DNA from: Ottowia sp.
Lineage (GTDB): Bacteria; Pseudomonadota; Gammaproteobacteria; Burkholderiales; Burkholderiaceae_C
Length of the DNA: 64,000 nt
Direction of reading: 5' to 3'
Assembly: GCF_035444425.1 (NCBI RefSeq)
Contig: NZ_DAOMOQ010000014.1
Location: 5,630 to 69,629, forward strand
In this document: positions 33,916-43,718 of the stretch, one piece after another
How positions within the stretch are numbered: position 1 is the first letter of the stretch
Layout of the letters: each line of letters begins with the position of its first letter
Made by a program: the position numbers and the translations under genes
Notes under the pieces: generated by a model
What the model was told of the DNA's origin: nothing
Databases searched by the model: none
Seen by the model: only the letters and a program-made list of their open reading frames with translations

Positions 33916-33990
33916 TCAGCCCATCTTCACCGCCGTGCCGGTCACCGACACCAGCATCATGCCGTTGGTCTCGCCCAGCACCTCGTAGTC
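33916..33990 (-). pseudogene. 3' remnant (24 codons) of a YbjQ/UPF0145-like gene truncated by a transposon end
   Basis: Reads DYEVLGETNGMMLVSVTGTAVKMG-stop and abuts the GGGG of the IR at 33991 exactly on a codon boundary. Confidence 0.75.
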
Positions 33991-34028
33991 GGGGTCGTCT
34001 CAGAATTCGGAAAATAAAGCACGTTAAG
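33991..34028. mobile_element. 38-bp terminal inverted repeat of a Tn3-family (Tn21-subgroup) transposon
   Basis: GGGGTCGTCTCAGAATTCGGAAAATAAAGCACGTTAAG; the tnpA stop codon lies inside it. Confidence 0.93.
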
Positions 34029-34574
34029 CCGGTTGCAATGCTCGCAACGGCCTGAACTTGCCCGCGCCGATCTTGGCGCTGCTGCGCCAGAGGTAATCGC
34101 CGGTCAGGTTGATGTGTTCCCAGCCTAGCGGCGATAGGTACTGCAACAGCACATCATCGACGGCATGACCAGTGCCACGTAGCCCGTGTGTCGCCCGCTC
34201 CAAATAGACCGTATTCCACAGTACGATGGCCGCCGTCACCAGGTTGAGGCCGCTGGCCCGGTAGCGCTGCTGCTCGAAACTGCGGTCGCGGATTTCTCCC
34301 AGGCGGTTGAAGAACACGGCGCGCGCCAGTGCGTTGCGCGCTTCACCCTTGTTCAGCCCGGCATGTACGCGGCGGCGCAGTTCGACGCTTTGCAGCCAGT
34401 CCAGAATGAACAGCGTGCGCTCGATGCGCCCCAGCTCGCGCAGCGCTACGGCCAGGCCGTTCTGGCGCGGGTAGCTGCCGAGTTTCCTGAGCATCAGCGA
34501 GGCCGTCACCGTGCCCTGCTTGATCGAGGTGGCCAGCCGCAGGATTTCGTCCCAATGGGCGCGGACGTGCTTGA
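34024..34574 (-). pseudogene. tnpA: C-terminal fragment (about 184 codons) of a Tn3-family transposase
   Basis: [42 protein letters not shown] and [15 protein letters not shown]; interrupted at about 34575. Confidence 0.93.
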
Positions 34575-34682
34575 TGTTGATTTCCACGCAGAAGTGACCC
34601 ACTAACCCCCAGGATTTCCATCCAAACCTGACCCACGTACTAACCCTAACCTGCTGCTTTGTTGAGCAGCAGGAGACCAGGA

Positions 34683-36209
34683 GTGATAGACGTGGCAACA
34701 CTGAGTGTCATCAGGCGCTGGGCCCTGCGAGAGCAGTTGTCCATCCGAGAGATCGCCCGCCGCACGGGCCTCTCGCGCAACACCATCCGCAAGTACCTGC
34801 GCGCAGGCGAGGCCGAGCCGCACTATGCCAAGCGGGTCAGTCCATCCAAGCTCGATCCCTTCGCATCGAAGCTCTCGGGCTGGCTCAAGACGGAAGCTGG
34901 CCGATCCCGCAAGCAGCGGCGTACCGTCAAGCAGATGTACGCTGATCTGCAGGCCCTGGGCTATACCGGCTCCTACAACCGGGTTGCCGCCTTTGCCCGG
35001 CTGTGGCAAGAGCAGCGCGTGGTGGCCCAGCAGACCACCGGCCGCGGCACCTTCGTTCCCCTGGCCTTCGGCCCAGGTGAGGCCTTCCAGTTCGACTGGA
35101 GCGAGGACTGGGCAGTGCTGGCCGGAGTGCGCACCAAGCTGCAAGTGGCCCACTTCAAGCTCAGCCACAGCCGAGCGTTCTACCTGCGCGCCTATCCGCT
35201 GCAGACGCACGAGATGCTGTTTGACGCTCACAACCATGCGTTCGTAGTTCTGGGCGGTGTGCCCCGCCGTGGCATCTACGACAACATGCGCACCGCTGTA
35301 GACCGGGTGCGCCGTGGCAAGGAGCGCGACGTCAATGCGCGCTTTGCGGCCATGGTCAGCCACTTCCTGTTCGAGGCCGAGTTCTGCAATCCCGCGTCGG
35401 GCTGGGAGAAGGGCCAGGTGGAGAAGAACGTGCGCGACGCCCGCCATCGCTTGTGGCAGGTGGTGCCGCCATTCCCAGGCCTGACTGAGCTCAACGCCTG
35501 GCTTGAGGAGCGCTGCGTGGCCTTATGGAATGAGATCGAGCATGGCAAGTTGCCGGGCACCGTCGCGGATGTCTGGGCTCAAGAGAAGGCAACCTTGATG
35601 CCGATGCCTCGGCCCTTCGATGGCTTTGTGGAGCACACCAAGCGCGTCTCGCCCACCTGCTTGGTCCACTTCGAGCGCAACCGCTACAGCGTGCCGGCCC
35701 CGTATGCCAACCGGCCTGTAAGCCTGCGGGTCTACGCAGACCGCTTGGTGATTGCCGCCGAAGGCCAGATCGTGTGCGAGCACCAGCGCCTGATCGAGCG
35801 TAACCACCATGGTGCTGGGCTGACCGTCTACGACTGGCGCCACTACCTGGCGGTGCTGCAGCGCAAGCCCGGAGCCTTGCGCAATGGTGCTCCGTTCCTG
35901 GAGCTACCAGCGGCCTTCAAGCGACTGCAGGCCACCTTGCTCAAGCAACCCGGCGGCGACCGGGAGATGGTGGAGGTTCTGGCACTGGTGCTGCACCACG
36001 ACGAGCAGGCGGTACTCACCGCAGTGGAGCTGGCACTGGAGTCAGGTGCTGCCAGCAAGACCCACATCCTGAACGTGCTCCATCGCCTGCTGGACGGCAA
36101 GCCCGCTCCAGCACCGGTCACTTCGCCCCAGGCCCTCAAGCTGGCGGTGGAACCCCAGGCCAATGTGCTTCGCTACGACCAATTGAGGGAGGTGCGCTAT
36201 GCGTCATGA
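34683..36209 (+). CDS. istA: IS21-family DDE transposase IstA (508 aa)
   Basis: [35 protein letters not shown] and GWEKGQVE. Confidence 0.93.
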
Positions 36210-36416
36210 CCCTGCCATCGCTTCCATCGTGATCATGTTGCGCGAGCTCAAGATGCACGGTATGGCCCAGGCGGTTGCGGAACTGGCTGAGCAAGGTGCA
36301 CCGGCCTTCGATGCGGCACAGCCCATCCTGTCTCAACTGCTCAAGGCCGAGACCGCCGAGCGGGAGGTGCGCTCGGTAGCCTACCAATTGAAGGTGGCCA
36401 GATTCCCGGCGTACCG
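36199..36416 (+). pseudogene. istB: Truncated IstB (about 73 codons; ATPase domain absent)
   Basis: LRELKMHGMA...EREVRSVAYQLKVARFPAYR, then unrelated sequence; no Walker A motif. Confidence 0.88.
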
Positions 36417-36462
36417 GAGGGTCGGCCGTGATTCCTGCAAAATCCGCAGAAAGGAGGCTAAG
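36417..36462. mobile_element. Putative GAGGG-tipped Tn3-family terminal repeat (TnXax1/Tn4651-like lineage)
   Basis: GAGGGTCGGCCGTGATTCCTGCAAAATCCGCAGAAAGGAGGCTAAG begins exactly where istB homology stops, ends in CTAAG and sits next to tnpT/tnpS. The IR may be longer. Confidence 0.65.
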
Positions 36463-36620
36463 TATTTGATTTAACTAATATTTTTTCAACTGAGTGACCG
36501 TAGCTACCATCCAACGCGCCTTCGACTATGTGCTCAAAGCATTCCATACGCTGTACAGCGTATGGTTGGTGCGCAGCCAGGGCCTGGAGCTTGGAGCGAA
36601 AGCATCGTGCTGTCGCGCTA

Positions 36621-37610
36621 CTAGCGTTTGAGCACGGTCTTCATTTTGGACCGCGTCGCGGGCGTCTCAGTGTTGGCGCCCCCCTTGGGTAGGCGTGCTT
36701 TGAGCTGGACCAATAGGTCAGCCATGTCTTTTTGCAACTGCTCCTGGTGCGAGTGCGCCATCTGCAGATCCTCGCGTGCAGAAAGGATCTCACGGGCCAA
36801 GCCTGCGTTCTCGGCGATCAGGGCGCTGACCTGCACCCGAAGCGACTGGGCTTGCTCGTGCGAATCTGCCAACGACTTGGCCGCTTTTTTATTGTCATCT
36901 GCGAGCAAGAGGGTGACGCGCTTCAGTTCCTGCCGGGTCCTATCGACGTCCTCCAACAGCCGTCGTTCCTGAGCGGAAGCTCGTTGCTCCAGGCGCTCAC
37001 GCTCCTGCCGGTGCTCCTCGTTCAGCGCATTGAGGCGACCACGCTCGGCTTGCAACGCTTGCGTTGCCGCAGCATGCTGGGTGCGCACGGATTCAATGTC
37101 GGCGTCCCTACCCGCCAGCCCTTTTTGGAGGTCGGTGACCTGGCGCATCAGATCGGCGATCTGGTGATCCTTGGCCAGAAGCGCTGCGCCCAGTGCTTCC
37201 GAGCGCTCGTTCAACCGTTGCTGTTCTTGATCCAAGGCTGTTCGCTCGGCAGCGAGCCGCTCTACCAGCTTTTCCAGTGCGTCTCGATCGACCTGTACCG
37301 ATTGCGCCGCCTGCTCCTGGGCATGCTGCTGGGCGCGACCCCACAGCGCCTTGGCCACCCGCAGAACCGGTGCTGGCAGGGCGCCCTGCTCTCCGGTTCC
37401 CTCTTCGCCACCATTCGCGTCCAGTCGCTTGGCCAAAGAGCCGTACCAGGCATCGAGCATGGGCGCCACGGTGTTCGGCGACCCCCGGCCAAGGTACGCG
37501 CGCACGCGCTCGATCGTGGGCCGCTCACCCTGCGAGAGCACCGCATCGGCCGCGGCCCAAACCTCGTCGACCTGGACGCCTCGAGTGACTCTCGTACTTT
37601 TCATTTGCAT
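36621..37610 (-). CDS. tnpT: TnpT-like cointegrate-resolution helper (KfrA-type N-terminal DNA-binding domain plus coiled coil)
   Basis: VWAAADAVLSQGERPTIERVRAYLGRGSPNTV followed by a long E/Q/A/L-rich helical region; divergent from a tyrosine recombinase. Confidence 0.72.
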   Translation of the reverse strand: MQMKSTRVTRGVQVDEVWAAADAVLSQGERPTIERVRAYLGRGSPNTVAPMLDAWYGSLAKRLDANGGEEGTGEQGALPAPVLRVAKALWGRAQQHAQEQAAQSVQVDRDALEKLVERLAAERTALDQEQQRLNERSEALGAALLAKDHQIADLMRQVTDLQKGLAGRDADIESVRTQHAAATQALQAERGRLNALNEEHRQERERLEQRASAQERRLLEDVDRTRQELKRVTLLLADDNKKAAKSLADSHEQAQSLRVQVSALIAENAGLAREILSAREDLQMAHSHQEQLQKDMADLLVQLKARLPKGGANTETPATRSKMKTVLKR

Positions 37611-37637
37611 CGCCCTGCTTCAACGGTTAAATTACCA

Positions 37638-37698
37638 ACGATAAGGGATACTTATCGTGACTTATCGGCCAATTTCGTATCAAATCATACATAGTATG
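37638..37698. promoter_or_regulatory. Putative resolution (res) site between the divergent tnpT and tnpS
   Basis: ACGATAAG-GGATA-CTTATCGT (37638-58), a second ACTTATCG (37660-67) and CATAC-ATA-GTATG (37686-98), in an AT-rich spacer. Confidence 0.65.
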
Positions 37699-38795
37699 TG
37701 CGAGAAATATCCTTCAATCACCCTGCCCTGAACATGCGCCTGCCCATCCTCCAGAAAACCCCGGCCCTGCAGCCGCACGAGTTGAGCGATATGACCGCGC
37801 AGGCCGTGGCCGACCTGCTGCGCGAGGGCGAATCGCTCAACACGCAACTGAGCTACCGCAGCGCACTTCGATATTGGGCCGCCTGGTACGGGATCCGTTA
37901 CGGCGCGCAAATCAGCCTGCCGCTGCCCGCGGCCTGCGTGCTGCAGTTCATCGTCGACCACGCGCAGCGCACCACGCCCAAGGGCTTGGTGCACGAGCTG
38001 CCGGCGAAGATCGACGCCGCCCTGGTCGAGGCCGGCTACAAGGGAAAGACGGGACCGATGGCGCACAACACGCTGGTGCACCGCCTGGCCGTGCTCTCCA
38101 AAGCGCACAAGATGCGCGACGTGAAAAACCCCTGTCAGGACCCCAAGGTGCGCGAGCTGCTCTCGCGCACGCGCAAGGCCTACGCCAAGCGCGGCGAGTT
38201 GCCCAAGAAAAAAGACGCGCTGACCAAGGATCCGCTGCAGCTTGTGCTGGCCACCTGCGACGACACATTGAAAGGGAAGCGTGATCGTGCCCTCCTCCTC
38301 TTTGCTTGGGCCAGTGGTGGGCGCCGGCGCTCCGAAGTGGCCGCGGCCGACGTTAAATTTTTGAAGCGTCTGGCGCGGGGGGAGTTTTCTTACGAGCTCG
38401 CGTTCTCGAAAACGAACCAGAGTGGCGTCGACCGGCCCGAGAACCACAAGCCGGTGCTGGGTGCTGCGGGTGCTGCCCTGGAAGATTGGCTACTGATCAG
38501 CGGGATCCGCGAGGGCGCCCTCTTCCGTCGGGTGCTCAAGGGCGGCCACCTGGGTGGCCCGCTGTCGGCAGCGTCCGTGCGCGACATCGTTCAGGCGCGG
38601 TGTTTGTTGGCGGGTGTTGAGGGGGAGTTTTCTGCGCATTCGCTACGGTCGGGCTTTGTGACGGAAGCTGCCGCACAGAACGTCTCGATCGCTGACACGA
38701 TGGCGATGACAGGCCACCAGTCCGTGGCCGTGGTGCTCGGATACCAGCGCCGCGGTGGGCTTTCCAAAAACCCCGCTTCTAGTCTGCTGGCATAG
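37698..38795 (+). CDS. tnpS: Tyrosine recombinase, TnpS-like resolvase
   Basis: RDRALLLFAWASGGRRRSEV, SKT, HSLRSG, TGH and catalytic Tyr (LGY); the true start may be ATG 37734. Confidence 0.8.
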   Translation: MREISFNHPALNMRLPILQKTPALQPHELSDMTAQAVADLLREGESLNTQLSYRSALRYWAAWYGIRYGAQISLPLPAACVLQFIVDHAQRTTPKGLVHELPAKIDAALVEAGYKGKTGPMAHNTLVHRLAVLSKAHKMRDVKNPCQDPKVRELLSRTRKAYAKRGELPKKKDALTKDPLQLVLATCDDTLKGKRDRALLLFAWASGGRRRSEVAAADVKFLKRLARGEFSYELAFSKTNQSGVDRPENHKPVLGAAGAALEDWLLISGIREGALFRRVLKGGHLGGPLSAASVRDIVQARCLLAGVEGEFSAHSLRSGFVTEAAAQNVSIADTMAMTGHQSVAVVLGYQRRGGLSKNPASSLLA

Positions 38796-38821: not shown

Positions 38822-39081
38822 ATGATTTCCTCTGGCGGACTGGCCCATGCATTCGCCATGGACGCAGCGCAGTCCGAGGCCAAGCAGGTCATTTCGCTGC
38901 AGGGCGGCAAAAGCTCTACGTCTTCAAGGACGGCCTGATGGCGAAGGAAAGCAAGTTTGGACGTGCTATTCATCTCGGCAAGGGTGCCGTCATGCAGACG
39001 GCCGACGGGAAGAGCATCGCGACGATGGGCAACGAAGTCGCGCGTCTGTATGTCTTGCTGAACAAAGGCCATCACAACTGA
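38822..39081 (+). pseudogene. copK: CopK-like periplasmic copper-binding protein, frameshifted, with degenerate N-terminus
   Basis: One frame gives LAHAFA-MDAAQSEAKQVISLQGG; the -1 frame continues KLYVFKDGLMAKESKFG...MGNEVARL...KGHHN; the shift lies near 38905-38915. Confidence 0.7.
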
Positions 39082-39138
39082 GGCTGGCCACCTGCGCTCC
39101 TGCGGTCAAGGCTTCGCTGCATGCGAGCCAGACCTTCA

Positions 39139-39170
39139 AGACCTTCTCGTCAGTTCTGACGAGAAGGTCT
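39139..39170. terminator. Perfect 15-bp inverted repeat between the convergent copK and ATPase genes
   Basis: AGACCTTCTCGTCAG-TT-CTGACGAGAAGGTCT; no long U-tract, so the terminator role is tentative. Confidence 0.5.
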
Positions 39171-39195
39171 CTTCATTTGGACTTCTGCGTCCTAA

Positions 39196-41565
39196 TCACT
39201 CTTCCCGGATGACTGCGCCCCGCAACCGCAGCGCGTTGCCGATCACCGAGGCCGAGCTGAGGCACATGGCCAGCGCGGCGATCATGGGCGACAACAGCCA
39301 GCCGGTGAACGGGTACAGCAAGCCCGCGGCCAGCGGAATGCCCAGGGCGTTGTAGACGAAGGCGAAAGCCAGGTTCTGCTTCATGTTCTCCACCGTCGCC
39401 ACCGAGAGCGCGCGGGCCGTCGCAATGCCCCGCAGATCGCCCTTGACCAGCGTGAGTTGCGCGCTGTTCATCGCCACATCGGTGCCCGTGCCCATGGCAA
39501 TGCCCACATCGGTGCGGGCCAGTGCCGGCGCGTCGTTGATACCGTCACCGGCCATCGCGACCACGCGGCCCTCCGCCTGGAGTTTCTCCACGAGTTGGAG
39601 TTTGTCGGCGGGCTTCACTTCTCCGTGCACCTCGTCAATGCCCAGGCGTTGACCCACGGAGCGCGCGGTGGTGAGGCCGTCGCCGGTGGCCATGATCACG
39701 CGGATGTTCGCCTGGCGCAGCGAGGCCAGTGCGTCCGCCGTGGTGGTCTTGACCGGGTCGGACACCGCCAGCAGACCGGCCAGCGCTTGGTTCACCGCGA
39801 GAAACATGACGCTGGCGCCCTGTGCGCGCAGTGCTTCGGCCTGGGCGGCCAGGGGCGCGACGTCCACCCCCAGCTGTTGCATCAGCGCCGTGTTGCCCAA
39901 GGCCAGGGGCTTGCCGCTCACAACACCCTTGACCCCGATGCCGGACTCGGAGTCGAACTGCTCGGGCTTGTCGAGTGTGAGCCCCTGTTGCTTTGCTGCG
40001 GCCACGATGGCGGCGGCCAGCGGGTGTTCGCTGCCCTGGTCCAGGCTGGCGGCGAGGCGCAAGACCTCGTCTTCGGGGACGCTCCCGTGTCCGATGGCAC
40101 GCTCGAAGGTGGGGCGGCCTTCGGTCAGCGTGCCCGTCTTGTCGACGATCAGTGTGTCGACCTTGCGCAGGTTTTCGATGGCGGCGGCGTCGCGAAACAA
40201 GACGCCGTTGGTGGCGCCGCGCCCGGTCGCCACCATGATGGACATGGGCGTCGCCAGGCCCAACGCACAGGGGCACGCGATGATCAACACGGCCACCGCA
40301 TTGATGAGTGCGTAGACCCAGCTCGGCTCGGGTCCGAACAGACCCCAGCCGAAGAAGGTGACCAGTGCCGCGACCACGACACCCACGACAAAGTAGCCCG
40401 CCACCTGGTCGGCCATGCGCTGCATGGGCGCGCGCGAACGCTGGGCCATGGCAACCATCTGCACGATCTGCGAGAGCACGGTATCCGAGCCCACGTGCTC
40501 GGAGCGCATCACCAATGCACCGCTGGTGTTGAGCGTGGCGCCGATCAGCTTGTCACCGACCCGCTTGGTCACCGGCAGCGGCTCGCCCGTGAGCATCGAT
40601 TCGTCGAGTGCGCTGCTGCCCTCGACCACGGTGCCGTCGGTCGGCACCTTTTCGCCGGGGCGCACACGCAGCAGGTCGCCCACATGCACATGGGCCAGCG
40701 GCACGTCTTCTTCCTGCCCGTCGGCCGCGATGCGCCGCGCGGTCTTGGGCGCCAGACCCAGCAGCGAGCGGATGGCGGCCGAGGTTTGGGACCGTGCCTT
40801 GAGTTCCAGCAGCTGACCCAACAAGGTCAGCGAGATGATCACCGCCGCCGCTTCGAAGTACACCGACACCCGCCCCATCGACACAAAGGAGTCGGGGAAC
40901 ACCTGCGGCGCCACCGTGGCCACCACGCTGTACACAAACGCCGAACCGGTGCCCAGACTGATCAGCGTCCACATGTTGGGGCTGCGGTTCACGATCGACT
41001 GCGCGCCGCGCACAAAGAATGGCCAGCCGGCCCACAGCACGATCGGCACGGTCAGCACCAGCTCGATCCAGCTCTGTGTGGTCATGTCGAACCAGCCGAG
41101 GTTGTGGCCGAACATCGCCAGCACGGCGACCACCACCGTGAGCGGCAAGGTCCACCAGAACCGCCGCTGGAAGTCCACCAGCTCGGGGTTCTCCTCAGCG
41201 TCCAGTTCGGGCATGACCGGCTCCAGCGACATGCCGCATTTGGGACAGTTGCCCGGGTGGTCCTGCCGGATCTCCGGGTGCATGGGACAGGTGTAGAGCG
41301 TGCCGGGCTTGCCCTGCGGCGCGGGCGTTGGGGCTGCGTGACGCCCCACCTCGGCGTGAACAAACCGGGCCGGTTCGGCCGCAAACCGGGCTTGGCACTT
41401 CGCGCTGCAGAAATAGTAGGGCTGCCCCGCGTGCTCCAGGTGGTGTGGCGACTGCTCGGTGACCGCCATCCCGCACACGGGATCTTTCAGCCCGGTCGCA
41501 GGATGAAGTGGTTTTGACGCGCCGTTGGGGTGGCCGGCATGGTCGTGTTTTGCTTGTGTGTCCAT
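39196..41565 (-). CDS. copA: Cu(I)/Ag(I)-type P1B-ATPase with YHS and heavy-metal-binding N-terminal domains (789 aa)
   Basis: KDPVCGM..YFCS (YHS), [38 protein letters not shown] and MCLSS. Confidence 0.92.
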
Positions 41566-41759
41566 GTCTTTCCCTTCCTGGAAATTTCGAAACCCCGTGG
41601 TGCCAAACACCATCTTCCTCTCAATGGCGCGATGTGACGGAGCGCATTGGCACTTGGTGCACGTGAACGCCGCGCATGCAGGCCAGAAGGTCAACTGAGG
41701 TTGCCCCTGAAAAGTGGAGTTCTTAGCCCTTGTTGAAAATACCGACAAGGAGTTCAGAG

Positions 41760-42092
41760 ATGAGTGAAAAGCAGGTGCGTGCGCAGTACACGCGAGAGTT
41801 CAAGCTGGAGGCTGTTCGGCAGGTGCGCTCGGGTCAGCCGATTGCGGTGGTGGCCAAGGTACTGGGCATCCCCAAAGCGAGCCTGGGCAACTGGGTGCGG
41901 CTGTCAGCCAAGGGAGAATTGGACGGTGCGGGCGGTGGTGACAAGAGCATCCAAGTCTCGCCCGAGAAAATGGAGATTGCTCGGCTGCGCGCCGAGAATG
42001 CCCGGCTTCGCATGGAGCGTGACGTTGCAAAAAAAGCCGCGGCGTACTTCGCGCAGGACACGCTGCGAGGTACGCCTGGATTCACCAAATGA
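41760..42092 (+). CDS. IS3-family OrfA
   Basis: [33 protein letters not shown] zipper, and an A7G slip site at 42029-36. Confidence 0.9.
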
Positions 42093-42958
42093 GAAAGCTG
42101 TATCCGGTGAGTGTGTCCTGCGGTGTGCTGGAGGTGAGCGCGAGCGGGTACTTCAACTGGCTGCGCCGAGGCGAGTCTGGCCACGGTGGCCCTGGCCGGC
42201 GCTACAGCGACGAAGCCTTGCTGGCGCACATTCGTGCCATCCACGCCCAGGTCAAGGGCGAATACGGCTGGCCACGCATGCACAAGGAACTGCTGGCCCG
42301 AGGCATCCGTGTGGGCAAAGACCGGGTTCGCAAGCTCATGCAGCAGCACGCCATCAAGGCCAGGACGAAACGCAAGTTTGTGGTCACCACCGACAGCAGA
42401 CACAGCCTGCCGGTGGCGCCCGACCTGGTGCAGCGGCGCTTCAAGCCCGAGGAGCCCAACCAGCTCTGGAGTGGCGACATCACCTACATCCAGACCGACG
42501 AGGGCTGGCTGTACCTGGCTGCGGTCATCGACCTGTTCAGCCGTCAGGTGGTGGGCTGGAGCCTGCAGCCGCACATGCAGGCGGGCTTGGTCAAGGACGC
42601 GCTGGCCATGGCGTGGTGGCGCCGTAGACCGCCTCCTGGGGTGATATTCCACAGCGACCGGGGCAGCCAGTATTGCAGCGCAGAGTTCCAGCAGGCCCTG
42701 AAGAACTGGGGCATCCAATCATCGATGAGCCGCAAGGGGAACTGTTGGGACAACGCACCGACGGAAAGCTTCTGGGGGCGGCTGAAAACCGCCAGCGTGC
42801 ATGGGTGCAAATTCGCCACCCGTGAGCAGGCAAGTCAGGCGGTGATGGACTGGATGGCCTTCTACAATCACCGAAGGTTGCATTCGTCACTGGGCTACCT
42901 CAGCCCGATGCAATACGAGCAGCGCTGGTACGAGGCACAGCGTAAAAAGGCCGCGTGA
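42089..42958 (+). CDS. IS3-family OrfB (DDE); the OrfAB fusion would form by -1 frameshift
   Basis: WSGDITYI, FHSDRGSQY and GNCWDNAPTES; the -1 frame is open from the slip site (...[10 protein letters not shown]). Confidence 0.92.
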   Translation: MRKLYPVSVSCGVLEVSASGYFNWLRRGESGHGGPGRRYSDEALLAHIRAIHAQVKGEYGWPRMHKELLARGIRVGKDRVRKLMQQHAIKARTKRKFVVTTDSRHSLPVAPDLVQRRFKPEEPNQLWSGDITYIQTDEGWLYLAAVIDLFSRQVVGWSLQPHMQAGLVKDALAMAWWRRRPPPGVIFHSDRGSQYCSAEFQQALKNWGIQSSMSRKGNCWDNAPTESFWGRLKTASVHGCKFATREQASQAVMDWMAFYNHRRLHSSLGYLSPMQYEQRWYEAQRKKAA

Positions 42959-43021
42959 ATCGTGGGTTAAGAACTACACGAAACAGGGGCAAGGTCACAC
43001 CTCACCCTGAAGCATTGCACC

Positions 43022-43132
43022 ATGACAGCCCAGCGAAAAGGCGATTTGCCAACAAAGCTTTGCGCCTGTTGCCAGCGCCCGATGGCCTGGCGCAAAAAAT
43101 GGGCCAAGGTGTGGGACGAAGTGAAGTACTGC
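43022..43132 (+). pseudogene. DUF2256-family gene truncated after KYC
   Basis: [33 protein letters not shown]; the following sequence is IS5 transposase. Confidence 0.78.
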
Positions 43133-43718
43133 CCAGCAGTGGTATTTCGGGATGAAGCTGCACATTGGCGTGGACAGCCGCACCGGGCTGGCGCACAGCG
43201 CTGTGGTGACAGCAGCCAACGTGCACGACAAGCACCCGCTGCCCGATCTGCTGCACGGCAATGAGCAGCGTGTGTATGGCGACAGTGCCTACGCCAGCCA
43301 GAAGGCGTTGATCGGATCGAAGGCCCCCAAAGGCCCGGGACTTCACCAACCAGCGCGTGCGGAGGGGCGGCGAGATCGACGAGGCTGAGCGATCCAGGAA
43401 CCACAACAAGTCCAAGGTCCGCGCCCGGGTCGAACACGTCTTCGCTGTGGTCAAACGGCTCTGGGGCTTTGCCAAGGTGCGCTACCGGGGCCTGGCCAAG
43501 AACGCCACGCGCTCGTTTGTGGTGCTGGGTCTGGCCAACATCCACCTGGCGCGCCAGCGCCTCGTGGCATGAGTGCGCCCGCAGCGGGCGCCAAGGGCGG
43601 ATGAAGACGCCCAGAAGGGTCTCAGGTCGCCTCAGAATGCGTGATTCGCCGACCTAATCCCGCATGTCGAAATCGGCCAGCGAGGTTCGTTGAGATCTAC
43701 GGCTTGTTCAGCGCAGCC
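43133..43718 (+). mobile_element. IS5-family remnant: frameshifted 3' transposase fragment plus right end
   Basis: [21 protein letters not shown], an extra A near 43329-31, then VRARVEHVF..KVRYRGLAKN (stop 43572); end CTTGTTCAGCGCAGCC followed by TTAA. Confidence 0.85.

What the first reader, a model, noticed from the sequence alone, without database searches (positions are those of the whole stretch)
36417..38795. TnpT-res-TnpS module beside a GAGGG end: possible Tn4651/TnXax1-type carrier of the phenol pathway
Seen: a non-GGGG terminus ending in CTAAG, then a divergent KfrA-like coiled-coil gene and a tyrosine recombinase around a symmetric AT-rich site; no cognate tnpA in the window. Recalled: Tn4651-type catabolic transposons resolve cointegrates with TnpS/TnpT, and TnXax1 has GAGGG-tipped long IRs and non-autonomous derivatives. 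Inference: a related element, here in a Comamonadaceae-like host, whose cargo runs through copA into the phenol/meta cluster.
Basis: partly seen in the sequence, partly recalled or inferred. Interest (0 to 1): 0.62.

Follow-up and report, generated by a model that had tools for sequence, protein, structure and literature searches.

The report
One-ended Tn3-family transposon remnant
This is the left end of a known kind of bacterial jumping gene (a 46-base terminal repeat plus its two-protein system for separating fused DNA circles), but its other end and its transposase are missing here, and nothing shows that it carries the neighbouring phenol-degradation genes.

Summary
A 46-bp Tn3-family terminal repeat (GAGGG...CTAAG, 36417-36462) cuts an IS21 istB gene. 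Next to it lie a KfrA_N coiled-coil gene (tnpT-like, 36621-37610, minus strand), a 123-bp AT-rich intergenic site, and a Cre-like tyrosine recombinase (tnpS-like, 37734-38795).

Relatives show what the block is. The same IR-to-tnpS block (83-91% nt identity) is the left end of complete Comamonadaceae transposons. These have a partner IR, a Tn3-family tnpA (35-39% identical to the Tn4651 and TnXax1-like TnpA) and 5-6-bp target duplications. The intergenic site shares the motif TTCGTA-N8-TACATAGTATGT with the experimentally defined Tn4651 res region.

The TnpS/TnpT pair is a divergent subfamily, about 24% identical to the Tn4651 proteins. In a tree it groups with Cre and TnpS, not with the genome's own Xer proteins and integrases.

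The "carrier of the phenol pathway" idea is not supported:
- The assembly holds no partner IR and no cognate tnpA.
- DNA after tnpS is a mosaic: a broken copK, a copper ATPase, an IS3 without target duplication, a 138-bp gene fragment and a truncated IS5.
- The phenol/meta cluster ends in an IS1071 repeat at the contig end.

This is an ordinary one-ended remnant of a known kind of element, and of modest interest.

The parts
36417..36462 (+). 46-bp terminal inverted repeat (left end, reading inward to the right), GAGGG tip and CTAAG inner end
   Evidence: Homology to relatives starts exactly here. The same IR occurs as inverted pairs flanked by 5-6-bp target duplications in other genomes. It has the same length class and inner CTAAG as the Tn4651 IR. 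It matches a TnXax1-type IR at 29 of 46 positions, including the GAGGGTCGGC tip.
36463..36620 (.). Spacer between the IR and the tnpT stop codon, containing a perfect 22-bp palindrome CCATACGCTGTACAGCGTATGG (36542-36563)
   Evidence: Read directly from the sequence. The palindrome is conserved in the Hydrogenophaga element. Some relatives carry a roughly 700-bp insert between 36587 and 36600. Its function is unknown; a tnpT terminator or a protein-binding site is possible.
36621..37610 (-). tnpT-like gene: KfrA_N DNA-binding domain plus a long coiled coil, 329 aa
   Evidence: Pfam KfrA_N E 4.4e-21. The Tn4651 TnpT and the TnpT-position proteins of the TnXax1-like and P. aeruginosa elements hit the same Pfam family at E 1e-26 to 1e-28. 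Identity is 94% to G066, 74% to Hydrogenophaga PBL-H3, 43% to Diaphorobacter, and only 24% (E 0.01-0.1) to the Tn4651 TnpT.
37611..37733 (.). AT-rich res/rst-like recombination region between the divergent genes. It holds a candidate accessory site ACGATAAG-GGATA-CTTATCGT-GA-CTTATCG (37638-37667) and a candidate core TTCGTA-TCAAATCA-TACATAGTATGT (37674-37699).
   Evidence: Repeats found. G+C is 42% against 68% for the window. The TTCGTA...TACATA.TATG motif aligns with the Tn4651, P. aeruginosa and TnXax1-like intergenic regions. The CGATAAG repeats are conserved only in the window's own clade. The roles assigned to each site are inferred, not shown.
37734..38795 (+). tnpS-like gene: Cre-like tyrosine recombinase, 353 aa (an alternative GTG start lies at 37698)
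   Evidence: Pfam Phage_integrase. The only solved-structure relatives are Cre and Tre, at E 2e-7, and the R, K, H-x-x-R, H/W and Y positions align. It is 24% identical over its full length to the Tn4651 TnpS, E 6e-16. Tree placement is. dN/dS is 0.05-0.08 against relatives.
36199..36416 (+). Target of the insertion: the 5' part of an IS21-family istB gene, cut by the IR (istA is at 34659-36209)
   Evidence: NCBIfam IS21_help_AAA positions 1-62 of 232 and the IS21 transposase model. No remainder of istB exists in the assembly.
38838..41613 (.). DNA directly after the conserved block: a copK remnant (plus strand, 5'-truncated and frameshifted, ending at 39081) and a copper-type P1B ATPase (minus strand, 39196 to about 41613)
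   Evidence: The 47-aa ORF matches CopK model positions 46-87 of 88. The three-frame translation shows the frameshift and a shortened signal peptide. The ATPase domains are listed. This DNA is not shared with any relative of the module.
41696..43718 (.). Mosaic junction zone: an IS3-family element (41696-42997) with flanks AAC and CAC and so no target duplication; a 138-bp DUF2256-like gene fragment (42998-43135); and the 3' remnant of an IS5-family element (about 43136-43718)
   Evidence: Terminal inverted repeats. Sequence and reading frames. Pfam hits for the IS3 ORFs and for the IS5 ORFs in the gene table. The identification of DUF2256 rests on my reading of the translated motif, not on a tool hit.

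Best explanation
Window 36417-38795 is the left terminal module of a replicative Tn3-family transposon of the TnpS/TnpT type. It consists of one 46-bp terminal repeat, the accessory DNA-binding protein gene tnpT, the resolution site, and the Cre-like recombinase gene tnpS.

How complete elements of this lineage work (by analogy with Tn4651; inferred for this lineage):
- A transposase gene at the opposite end acts on the two inverted repeats.
- It makes a cointegrate and a 5-bp target duplication.
- TnpS, helped by TnpT, then recombines the two copies of the intergenic site to resolve the cointegrate.

In this genome the element landed in the istB gene of an IS21-family element and later lost everything beyond tnpS, including cargo, tnpA and the right repeat. 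What remains is a non-autonomous one-ended remnant. Its recombinase genes look intact but have only one site to act on.

The neighbouring copper genes, IS fragments and phenol/meta-cleavage cluster are joined to it by later IS-associated rearrangements. They are not demonstrable cargo.

Shown: the anatomy, the homology, the existence of complete relatives, and the absence of the partner parts from the assembly. Inferred: recombination activity, the roles of the sites, and the order of the rearrangements.
For: The IR-to-tnpS block is a discrete unit.
- It is shared with the Hydrogenophaga sp. PBL-H3 plasmid (83% nt) and with genome G066 (91% nt).
- In both cases the shared stretch runs from 36417 to the tnpS stop codon and no further.

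Complete relatives exist.
- The Hydrogenophaga element has its partner IR 20.5 kb away, with 1 mismatch in 36, next to a tnpA that is split by an IS.
- MAG OTTO1 (also seen as metagenome contig Ga0209572) and MAG KLAP82 carry IRL-tnpT-res-tnpS...tnpA-IRR with target duplications AGGCC and TGAATA.
- G221 and Ga0208515 carry the same IR pair and tnpA, with duplications AGCTC and AATTC.

The cognate TnpA belongs with the Tn4651 group. It is 38.7% identical to a TnXax1-like TnpA, 35.4% to the Tn4651 TnpA and 26% to the Tn4653 TnpA.

The proteins fit the family.
- TnpS sits in a clade with 99/99 support together with Cre and the Tn4651/TnXax1 TnpS, apart from the seven other tyrosine recombinases of this genome.
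- Cre and Tre are the only PDB hits.
- The TnpT-like protein shares the KfrA_N domain with the Tn4651 TnpT and its counterparts in the TnXax1-like and P. aeruginosa elements.
- The res motif is shared with Tn4651.

The element is a remnant here.
- The assembly has no second IR, no cognate tnpA and no rest of istB.
- None of the 53 IR-bearing public loci shows the predicted right junction.
- copK next to tnpS is truncated and frameshifted.
- The IS3 has no target duplication, and a 138-bp gene fragment and a truncated IS5 follow it.
- G066 shows the same one-ended state independently.
Against: The genome is a fragmented assembly of 81 contigs that under-represents mobile DNA. Contig C14 stops inside an IS1071 repeat, and the interior of IS1071 is absent from the assembly. 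A missing right end could therefore have been lost in assembly or binning rather than in the cell.

The Tn4651 precedent shows that resolution and transposition modules can sit tens of kilobases apart.

No recombination or transposition activity was tested.

Similarity to the characterised Tn4651 proteins is low: 24% for TnpS, and TnpT is barely detectable by BLAST.

Confidence: 0.8

Rival explanations
1. The element is an intact, large Tn4651-style catabolic transposon. In this reading the copper genes and the phenol/meta cluster are true cargo. The tnpA and the right IR would lie beyond the IS1071 insertion at the contig end, on DNA that was not assembled or not binned.
For: The assembly demonstrably lacks mobile DNA. 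Contig C14 ends 55 bp into an IS1071 IR, and no IS1071 transposase is in the assembly. In Tn4651 the tnpT-res-tnpS module and tnpA lie at opposite ends, about 50 kb apart on pWW0. Relatives of this lineage do carry aromatic-catabolism cargo, for example a ring-hydroxylating dioxygenase and dmpG in the Hydrogenophaga element.
Against: The assembly has no IRR, no cognate tnpA and no rest of istB. The predicted junction appears in none of 53 public IR loci. Between tnpS and the phenol genes lie a truncated and frameshifted copK, an IS3 without target duplication, a 138-bp gene fragment and half an IS5, so the linkage is secondary. The DNA to the right of the IS3 differs in other assemblies of the same block. 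In a congener, the left-flank homologue and the phenol-cluster homologue lie 145 kb apart, and the cluster is present in four copies.
Confidence: 0.1
2. The gene pair is not transposon machinery here. It would be a free-standing Cre-like recombinase plus KfrA-like partner, serving as a plasmid or island multimer-resolution or integration module that happens to sit beside a solo Tn3-type repeat.
For: Homologous pairs are common outside recognisable Tn3 ends. TnpS homologues occur in 21 of 301 family genomes, but only 3 of those carry this IR. In 10 sampled loci, none has this IR or the cognate tnpA within 6 kb. Relatives also occur beside plasmid partition and replication genes, on alphaproteobacterial plasmids next to toxin-antitoxin genes, and in a cyanophage.
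Against: IR, tnpT, res and tnpS are inherited as one block with fixed spacing in the window, Hydrogenophaga PBL-H3 and G066. In OTTO1 and KLAP82 the same four parts keep the same order, with a roughly 700-bp insert between the IR and tnpT. In three of these elements the block is the left end of an element that has its partner IR and a tnpA, and two of them also have target duplications. The two readings are not exclusive: the transposon lineage may have captured such a module.
Confidence: 0.07
3. The arrangement is an assembly chimera: unrelated fragments joined through repeats.
For: The IS3 flanks show no target duplication. In other metagenome assemblies the IS3 right end is joined to sequences that are internal to contigs C7 and C56 of this genome. 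Paths through the IS3 are therefore ambiguous.
Against: This concerns only the IS3 junction, which lies outside the finding. The block from 33991 to the IS3 is reproduced at 99.7-100% identity in several independent assemblies, including the istB/IR junction and the tnpS/copK junction. Every segment is single-copy in this assembly.
Confidence: 0.03

Closest known systems
Tn4651 of Pseudomonas putida pWW0 (TnpS/TnpT/res resolution system; Genka 2002 and Yano 2013, as cited in PMC7157771 and PMC4337579)
   Same: A 46-47-bp IR ending in CTAAG. tnpT and tnpS are divergent near one end with the res site between them, and tnpA sits at the far end of complete relatives. TnpT is a KfrA_N domain plus a coiled coil of about 330 aa. 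TnpS is Cre-like. The intergenic motif TTCGTA...TACATAGTATGT is shared.
   Different: TnpS is only 24% identical and TnpT about 24% (E 0.01-0.1). TnpA of complete relatives is 35% identical. The tip is GAGGG, not GGGG. No tnpC is present, and tnpA reads outward towards its IR rather than inward. The extra CGATAAG repeats are absent from Tn4651. Here the element is truncated.
TnXax1 and other GAGGG-tipped Tn3-family elements (TnPa43, TnStma1, TnTin1, TnXca1; Ferreira et al. 2015, PMC4337579)
   Same: The IR tip is GAGGG(TCGGC), matching a TnXax1-type IR on an X. citri plasmid at 29 of 46 positions. The elements use TnpS/TnpT resolution. tnpA reads outward towards its IR. One-ended and non-autonomous derivatives are common.
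   Different: The IR is 46 bp, not 92 bp. TnpS is 28% identical and TnpA of relatives 39% identical. The hosts are Comamonadaceae and other Burkholderiales, not xanthomonads.
Unnamed 20.5-kb element on Hydrogenophaga sp. PBL-H3 plasmid pPBL-H3_B2-1 (NZ_CP044976, 129934-150414), and its relatives in MAGs OTTO1 and KLAP82
   Same: The IR, spacer, tnpT, res and tnpS are shared at 83% nt identity (TnpS 94% aa, TnpT 74% aa). This is the same transposon lineage.
   Different: Those elements keep the right IR and a tnpA, and they carry different cargo. In Hydrogenophaga the cargo includes LysR and IclR regulators, a ring-hydroxylating dioxygenase, TRAP transporter genes and dmpG. The window copy ends at tnpS.
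Cre/loxP of phage P1
   Same: Cre and its engineered derivative Tre are the only solved structures detectably related to the recombinase (E 2e-7), and the catalytic positions align. Cre falls in the same 99/99-supported clade.
   Different: Cre acts alone on a 34-bp site. Here a KfrA_N partner gene and a longer site with extra repeats are present. Identity to Cre is 24.5%.

Membership tests
Tn3-family transposon | Terminal inverted repeat of about 38-110 bp with a GGGG-like tip and a TAAG inner end | tested here: met
   The repeat is 46 bp, GAGGG...CTAAG, at 36417-36462. Homology to relatives starts at the tip. The same sequence forms inverted pairs elsewhere.
Tn3-family transposon | Second, inverted copy of the repeat bounding the element | tested here: not met
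   No second copy exists in the window or in the whole assembly.
Tn3-family transposon | Cognate DDE transposase (DUF4158 plus DDE_Tnp_Tn3, about 1000 aa) | tested here: not met
   The only hit in the assembly is a Tn21-type C-terminal fragment that belongs to another element. An intact cognate tnpA of 1011 aa is present in relatives.
Tn3-family transposon | 5-bp target-site duplication | not testable with these tools
   Only one end is present here. Complete relatives show AGCTC, AGGCC and AATTC, and one shows a 6-bp TGAATA.
TnpS/TnpT resolution system (Tn4651 type) | Divergently transcribed tnpT and tnpS with the recombination site between them | tested here: met
   The genes lie at 36621-37610 (minus strand) and 37734-38795 (plus strand), with a 123-bp spacer. 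The same layout occurs in Tn4651, TnXax1-like and P. aeruginosa elements.
TnpS/TnpT resolution system (Tn4651 type) | TnpS is a Cre-like tyrosine recombinase with the catalytic R, K, H-x-x-R, H/W and Y residues | tested here: met
   The alignment to Cre shows R (RRRSE), K (SKT), HSLR, H (GHQS) and Y (LGYQ) at the catalytic positions. The clade with Cre and TnpS has 99/99 support. Within that clade the window protein is a separate subfamily from the Tn4651/TnXax1 TnpS.
TnpS/TnpT resolution system (Tn4651 type) | TnpT accessory protein homologous to the Tn4651 TnpT | tested here: inconclusive
   It shares the Pfam domain (KfrA_N), the length and the coiled-coil architecture with the Tn4651 TnpT and its counterparts in related elements. 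Direct BLAST to the Tn4651 TnpT is marginal, at 24% and E 0.01-0.1.
TnpS/TnpT resolution system (Tn4651 type) | Functional res site that is recombined by TnpS and enhanced by TnpT | not testable with these tools
   Only sequence evidence is available: a motif shared with the Tn4651 res region, plus conserved inverted repeats.
TnXax1 group | Long (92-bp) IRs with GAGGG tips, and TnpA/TnpS/TnpT closely related to TnXax1 | tested here: not met
   The tip matches, but the IR is 46 bp. TnpS is 28% identical and TnpA of relatives 39% identical to the TnXax1-like proteins (PMC4337579).
Catabolic transposon carrying the phenol/meta pathway | The pathway genes lie between the two ends of one element | tested here: not met
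   There is no right end. Mosaic IS junctions lie between tnpS and the cluster. The cluster is cut by IS1071 at the contig end.

The most novel reading that the evidence does not exclude
The window-type pair (KfrA_N protein plus Cre-like recombinase, with CGATAAG repeats and a lox/res-like core) may be a distinct and widespread recombination cassette. It occurs on plasmids, in chromosomal islands and even in a cyanophage.

One Comamonadaceae Tn3 lineage appears to have captured it as a discrete 2.4-kb IR-proximal module and can swap it. Sister elements with the same IRs and tnpA carry an Xer-like recombinase instead. The module also survives as one-ended remnants, under purifying selection, after the rest of the transposon is gone. 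That would suggest a host-beneficial role, such as replicon dimer resolution, independent of transposition.
Probability: 0.35. Interest if true: 0.4.

Novelty: new member of a known kind. Interest (0 to 1): 0.22.

Why it matters
The finding correctly labels a piece of mobile DNA that standard annotation calls only "DNA-binding protein" and "site-specific integrase". It also documents a Comamonadaceae-wide lineage of GAGGG-tipped TnpS/TnpT transposons with defined ends and target duplications.

It removes an attractive but unsupported claim that this element carries the phenol-degradation pathway. For people tracking the spread of catabolic genes, the more relevant neighbours are the IS1071 end and the IS3/IS5 junctions.

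The divergent TnpS/TnpT subfamily and its candidate sites give a tractable system for asking how a KfrA-like partner controls a Cre-like recombinase. That is an incremental question rather than a surprising one.

Tried and rejected
Searches for the missing right end that found nothing:
- A second IR copy in the window and the whole genome: pattern search with 3 mismatches, and blastn-short with word size 7.
- A cognate tnpA: Pfam DDE_Tnp_Tn3 and tblastn with the intact relative's TnpA. Only the Tn21-type fragment was found.
- The remainder of istB.
- The predicted right junction among 29 metagenome and 24 genome loci that carry the IR 21-mer. No outer flank ends in CGGTA.

Other checks that led nowhere:
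- I first labelled the pXCV183 gene pair (52% TnpS identity) as TnXca1. The paper's identities (TnXca1 TnpS is 98% identical to TnXax1's) show it is a different, second pair on that plasmid, so I withdrew the label.
- The small ORFs upstream of tnpA in relatives show no similarity to TnpC.
- Synteny of the left flank and the phenol cluster in congeners was noisy. In the one informative genome they lie 145 kb apart.
- The differing right flanks of the IS3 in other assemblies cannot be told apart from assembler paths through a repeat. I give them little weight.
- A regex scan found no GAGGG/GGGGG...TAAG ends near homologous gene pairs in other loci. The first scan was too strict to detect GGGGT tips.
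- The earlier-findings look-up by sequence returned nothing.
Full report
**1. What is there**

Reading rightwards from 33991, the window holds three nested left ends.
- A Tn21-type 38-bp IR with the C-terminal 167 codons of a Tn3-family tnpA (34024-34701, minus strand; NCBIfam transpos_Tn3 positions 788-954).
- An IS21-family element that cuts this tnpA. Its istA is at 34659-36209, and its istB starts at 36199.
- The feature under study, which cuts istB after about 73 codons.

At 36417 the sequence GAGGGTCGGCCGTGATTCCTGCAAAATCCGCAGAAAGGAGGCTAAG begins (46 bp). It is unique in the window, and no chance matches occurred in 100 shuffles.

After 158 bp comes the stop codon of a 329-aa minus-strand gene. 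This gene has a KfrA_N DNA-binding domain (E 4.4e-21) and a long coiled coil.

A 123-bp spacer follows. It is 42% G+C against 68% for the window.

Then comes a plus-strand tyrosine recombinase gene (Pfam Phage_integrase). More than 100 homologue clusters are about 353 aa long, so the ATG at 37734 is the likely start.

The istB/IR junction and the rest of the block recur at 99.7-100% identity in independently assembled contigs from JGI, ENA and Logan samples. The arrangement is real DNA and not an artefact of this assembly.

**2. Is 36417 a transposon end?**

Yes. Megablast against plasmids finds one close relative, Hydrogenophaga sp. PBL-H3 plasmid pPBL-H3_B2-1. The match starts exactly at 36417 and stops at the tnpS stop codon.

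On that plasmid the same 46-bp sequence recurs inverted 20.5 kb away, with 1 mismatch in 36. It lies directly after a Tn3-family tnpA that is interrupted by an IS.

A pattern search of 301 genomes of the same family found the IR in four genomes.
- The window's own genome.
- The Hydrogenophaga plasmid.
- G066, which has one IR with tnpT and tnpS at 94% aa identity but no cognate tnpA.
- G221, a chromosomal 25.8-kb element with both IRs, an intact 1011-aa tnpA and a perfect 5-bp duplication AGCTC.

Exact-word scans then found the IR tip in 29 metagenome loci and 24 genome loci. The hosts include Rhodoferax, Polaromonas, Curvibacter, Roseateles, Aquabacterium, Ramlibacter and Albidiferax. Among these loci:
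- MAG OTTO1, also seen as metagenome contig Ga0209572, carries a 21.1-kb element with IRL, tnpT, res and tnpS at one end and tnpA-IRR at the other. It is flanked by AGGCC.
- MAG KLAP82 carries the same architecture, flanked by TGAATA.
- Contig Ga0208515 carries an 18.5-kb IR pair flanked by AATTC.

The GAGGG-tipped repeat is thus the working end of an active Tn3-family lineage. In that lineage the tnpT-res-tnpS block is the IR-proximal left module.

**3. Relation to known systems**

TnpA:
- The intact TnpA of relatives is 38.7% identical to a TnXax1-like TnpA, 35.4% to the Tn4651 TnpA and 26% to the Tn4653 TnpA.
- This places it with the Tn4651 subgroup as defined in the literature (PMC7157771).

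IR:
- The Tn4651 IR, recovered from pWW0, is GGGGTCATGCCGAGATAAGGCAAAAATTAGGACATTCGTTCTCTAAG. It has the same length class and the same inner CTAAG.
- A TnXax1-type IR on an X. citri plasmid shares the GAGGGTCGGC tip and 29 of 46 positions.
- Ferreira et al. (PMC4337579) already describe GAGGG tips in TnXax1, TnPa43, TnStma1, TnTin1 and TnXca1, and many non-autonomous derivatives.

TnpS:
- It is 24% identical over its full length to the Tn4651 TnpS (E 6e-16).
- Its only solved-structure relatives are Cre and its engineered derivative Tre (E 2e-7), and all catalytic positions align.
- In a maximum-likelihood tree, a clade with 99/99 support separates Cre, the Tn4651/TnXax1 TnpS and the window-type proteins from the seven other tyrosine recombinases of this genome.
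- Inside that clade the window protein belongs to a lineage of its own. This lineage holds Comamonadaceae proteins, a Diaphorobacter plasmid, a second pair on pXCV183, a cyanophage, and Methylorubrum and Agrobacterium plasmids.
- Its branching order relative to Cre and the canonical TnpS is unresolved.

TnpT:
- Published descriptions say TnpT resembles no known protein.
- Here, however, the Tn4651 TnpT and the TnpT-position proteins of the TnXax1-like and P. aeruginosa elements all hit Pfam KfrA_N at E 1e-26 to 1e-28. "KfrA-like" and "TnpT" therefore describe the same family.
- Direct similarity of the window protein to the Tn4651 TnpT is marginal.
- No tnpC is present in relatives.

**4. The site**

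Alignment of seven tnpT-tnpS spacers shows a conserved TTCGTA-N(5-8)-TACATA-N-TATG(T).
- In the window it reads TTCGTA TCAAATCA TACATAGTATGT (37674-37699).
- In Tn4651 it reads TTCGTA GTAGAT TACATAGTATGT, inside the region reported as the functional res (literature as cited in PMC4337579).

Upstream, only the window-type clade carries ACGATAAG-N5-CTTATCGT-N2-CTTATCG (37638-37667).

I infer that the first motif is the TnpS core and that the repeats are the TnpT (helix-turn-helix) binding sites. This inference is untested.

tnpS shows dN/dS of 0.05-0.08 against its relatives. The gene has therefore been under purifying selection in this lineage.

**5. Is it a carrier of the phenol pathway?**

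The evidence is against this reading, or at best silent.
- The assembly contains no second IR, no cognate tnpA and no remainder of istB.
- None of the 53 public IR loci shows the junction expected for the missing right end.
- In all three contexts the conserved block ends at the tnpS stop codon, and unrelated DNA follows.
- In the window the DNA that follows is, in order:
  - a copK that has lost most of its signal peptide and is frameshifted;
  - a copper-type P1B ATPase;
  - an IS3-family element whose flanks (AAC and CAC) are not a target duplication;
  - a 138-bp fragment of a small zinc-ribbon gene;
  - the 3' half of an IS5-family element, abutting the GntR gene of the phenol cluster.

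The phenol hydroxylase and meta-cleavage genes themselves are real.

Their far end is cut, 874 bp beyond the window, by the terminal repeat of IS1071, where contig C14 stops. That repeat is 100% identical to copies on pADP-1 and pUO1.

In other assemblies the IS3 right end is joined to different DNA. This may reflect assembler paths through a repeat.

In a congener the homologues of the left flank and of the phenol cluster lie 145 kb apart, and the cluster is present in four copies.

One real caveat remains. This fragmented assembly under-represents mobile DNA, so a right end lost in assembly or binning cannot be excluded. I give that rival about 0.1.

**6. Wider distribution**

TnpS homologues (at least 51% identity) occur in 21 of 301 family genomes.
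- In 8 of 10 sampled loci a divergent tnpT homologue is adjacent.
- None of the 10 shows this IR or the cognate tnpA within 6 kb.
- One close homologue sits beside plasmid partition and replication genes without a tnpT.
- G221 has the same IRs and tnpA but carries an Xer-like recombinase instead of tnpS and tnpT.

This pattern suggests that the pair is a portable cassette that this transposon lineage uses, and that resolution modules are exchanged. It is a modest, untested extension.

**7. Verdict**

The phenol-carrier inference is not supported.

The copy here is a one-ended, non-autonomous remnant. Novelty: a new member of a known kind. Interest is low to modest.

Noticed in passing
window 33916-33995; L030:5505-6257: In three other assemblies of the same block (L028, L030, L033), 677 bp lie between the window's left flank and the Tn21-type IR. 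They hold a complete ybjQ gene and a fragment of a Cys/Met-metabolism gene. The window and L031 lack these 677 bp. The cut in ybjQ therefore looks like a deletion next to the IR, not the original insertion site.
   Followed up: partly
contig C14 70511-70565 (881 bp beyond the window's right end); also L036 and L037 at window position 39314: The contig ends in the terminal repeat of IS1071, which cuts a 2-keto-4-pentenoate hydratase-family gene of the meta pathway. In two other samples the same IS1071 end is inserted in the 3' part of the copper ATPase gene. The IS1071 interior and transposase are absent from the assembly.
   Followed up: partly
window 38838-39081: copK (periplasmic copper-binding protein) is a pseudogene. 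Its signal peptide is shortened and there is a frameshift near 38910, so only the last 47 codons form an ORF.
   Followed up: partly
window 41696-42997: A single-copy IS3-family element lies upstream of the copper ATPase gene, and its flanks show no target duplication. In other metagenome assemblies its right end abuts sequences that are internal to contigs C7 and C56 of this genome. The IS is therefore active or multi-copy in related populations, and linkage across it is uncertain.
   Followed up: partly
window 42998-43718: A 138-bp fragment encodes the start of a small zinc-ribbon protein (DUF2256-like: ...[24 protein letters not shown]). It is fused to the 3' half of an IS5-family transposase gene that itself has a frameshift. 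The IS5 is a remnant, not a complete element.
   Followed up: no
window 36542-36563: A perfect 22-bp palindrome CCATACGCTGTACAGCGTATGG lies between the IR and the tnpT stop codon. It is conserved in the Hydrogenophaga element, and 19 bp of it recur in an unrelated spot of locus L008. Several relatives carry a roughly 700-bp insert just beside it.
   Followed up: no
L049/L050 (G221:C1:2171536-2197327): This is a complete 25.8-kb sister transposon with the same IRs and tnpA but no tnpS or tnpT. It carries two TIR-domain proteins next to the left IR, an Xer-like tyrosine recombinase, a MerR regulator and an outer-membrane efflux protein.
   Followed up: partly
L107 and L097: In Rhodoferax ferrireducens OTU1 and in one metagenome contig, a tnpT/tnpS pair lies just outside an IR of this family rather than inside it. 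In the Rhodoferax genome it lies 0.9-2.2 kb from the tip; in the metagenome contig it lies about 7 kb away. This suggests nested or adjacent elements.
   Followed up: no
L066 (Dolichospermum phage Dfl-JY45, 119881-121005): A cyanophage encodes a protein that is 42% identical to the window's TnpS over its full length. This is closer than any canonical TnpS.
   Followed up: no
G306 contigs C1-C4 (same genus): Homologues of the GntR, DmpR and phenol hydroxylase region (70-76% nt identity) occur four times in one congeneric genome, three of them on small contigs. This hints that the phenol cluster is itself on repeated or mobile DNA in this genus.
   Followed up: no
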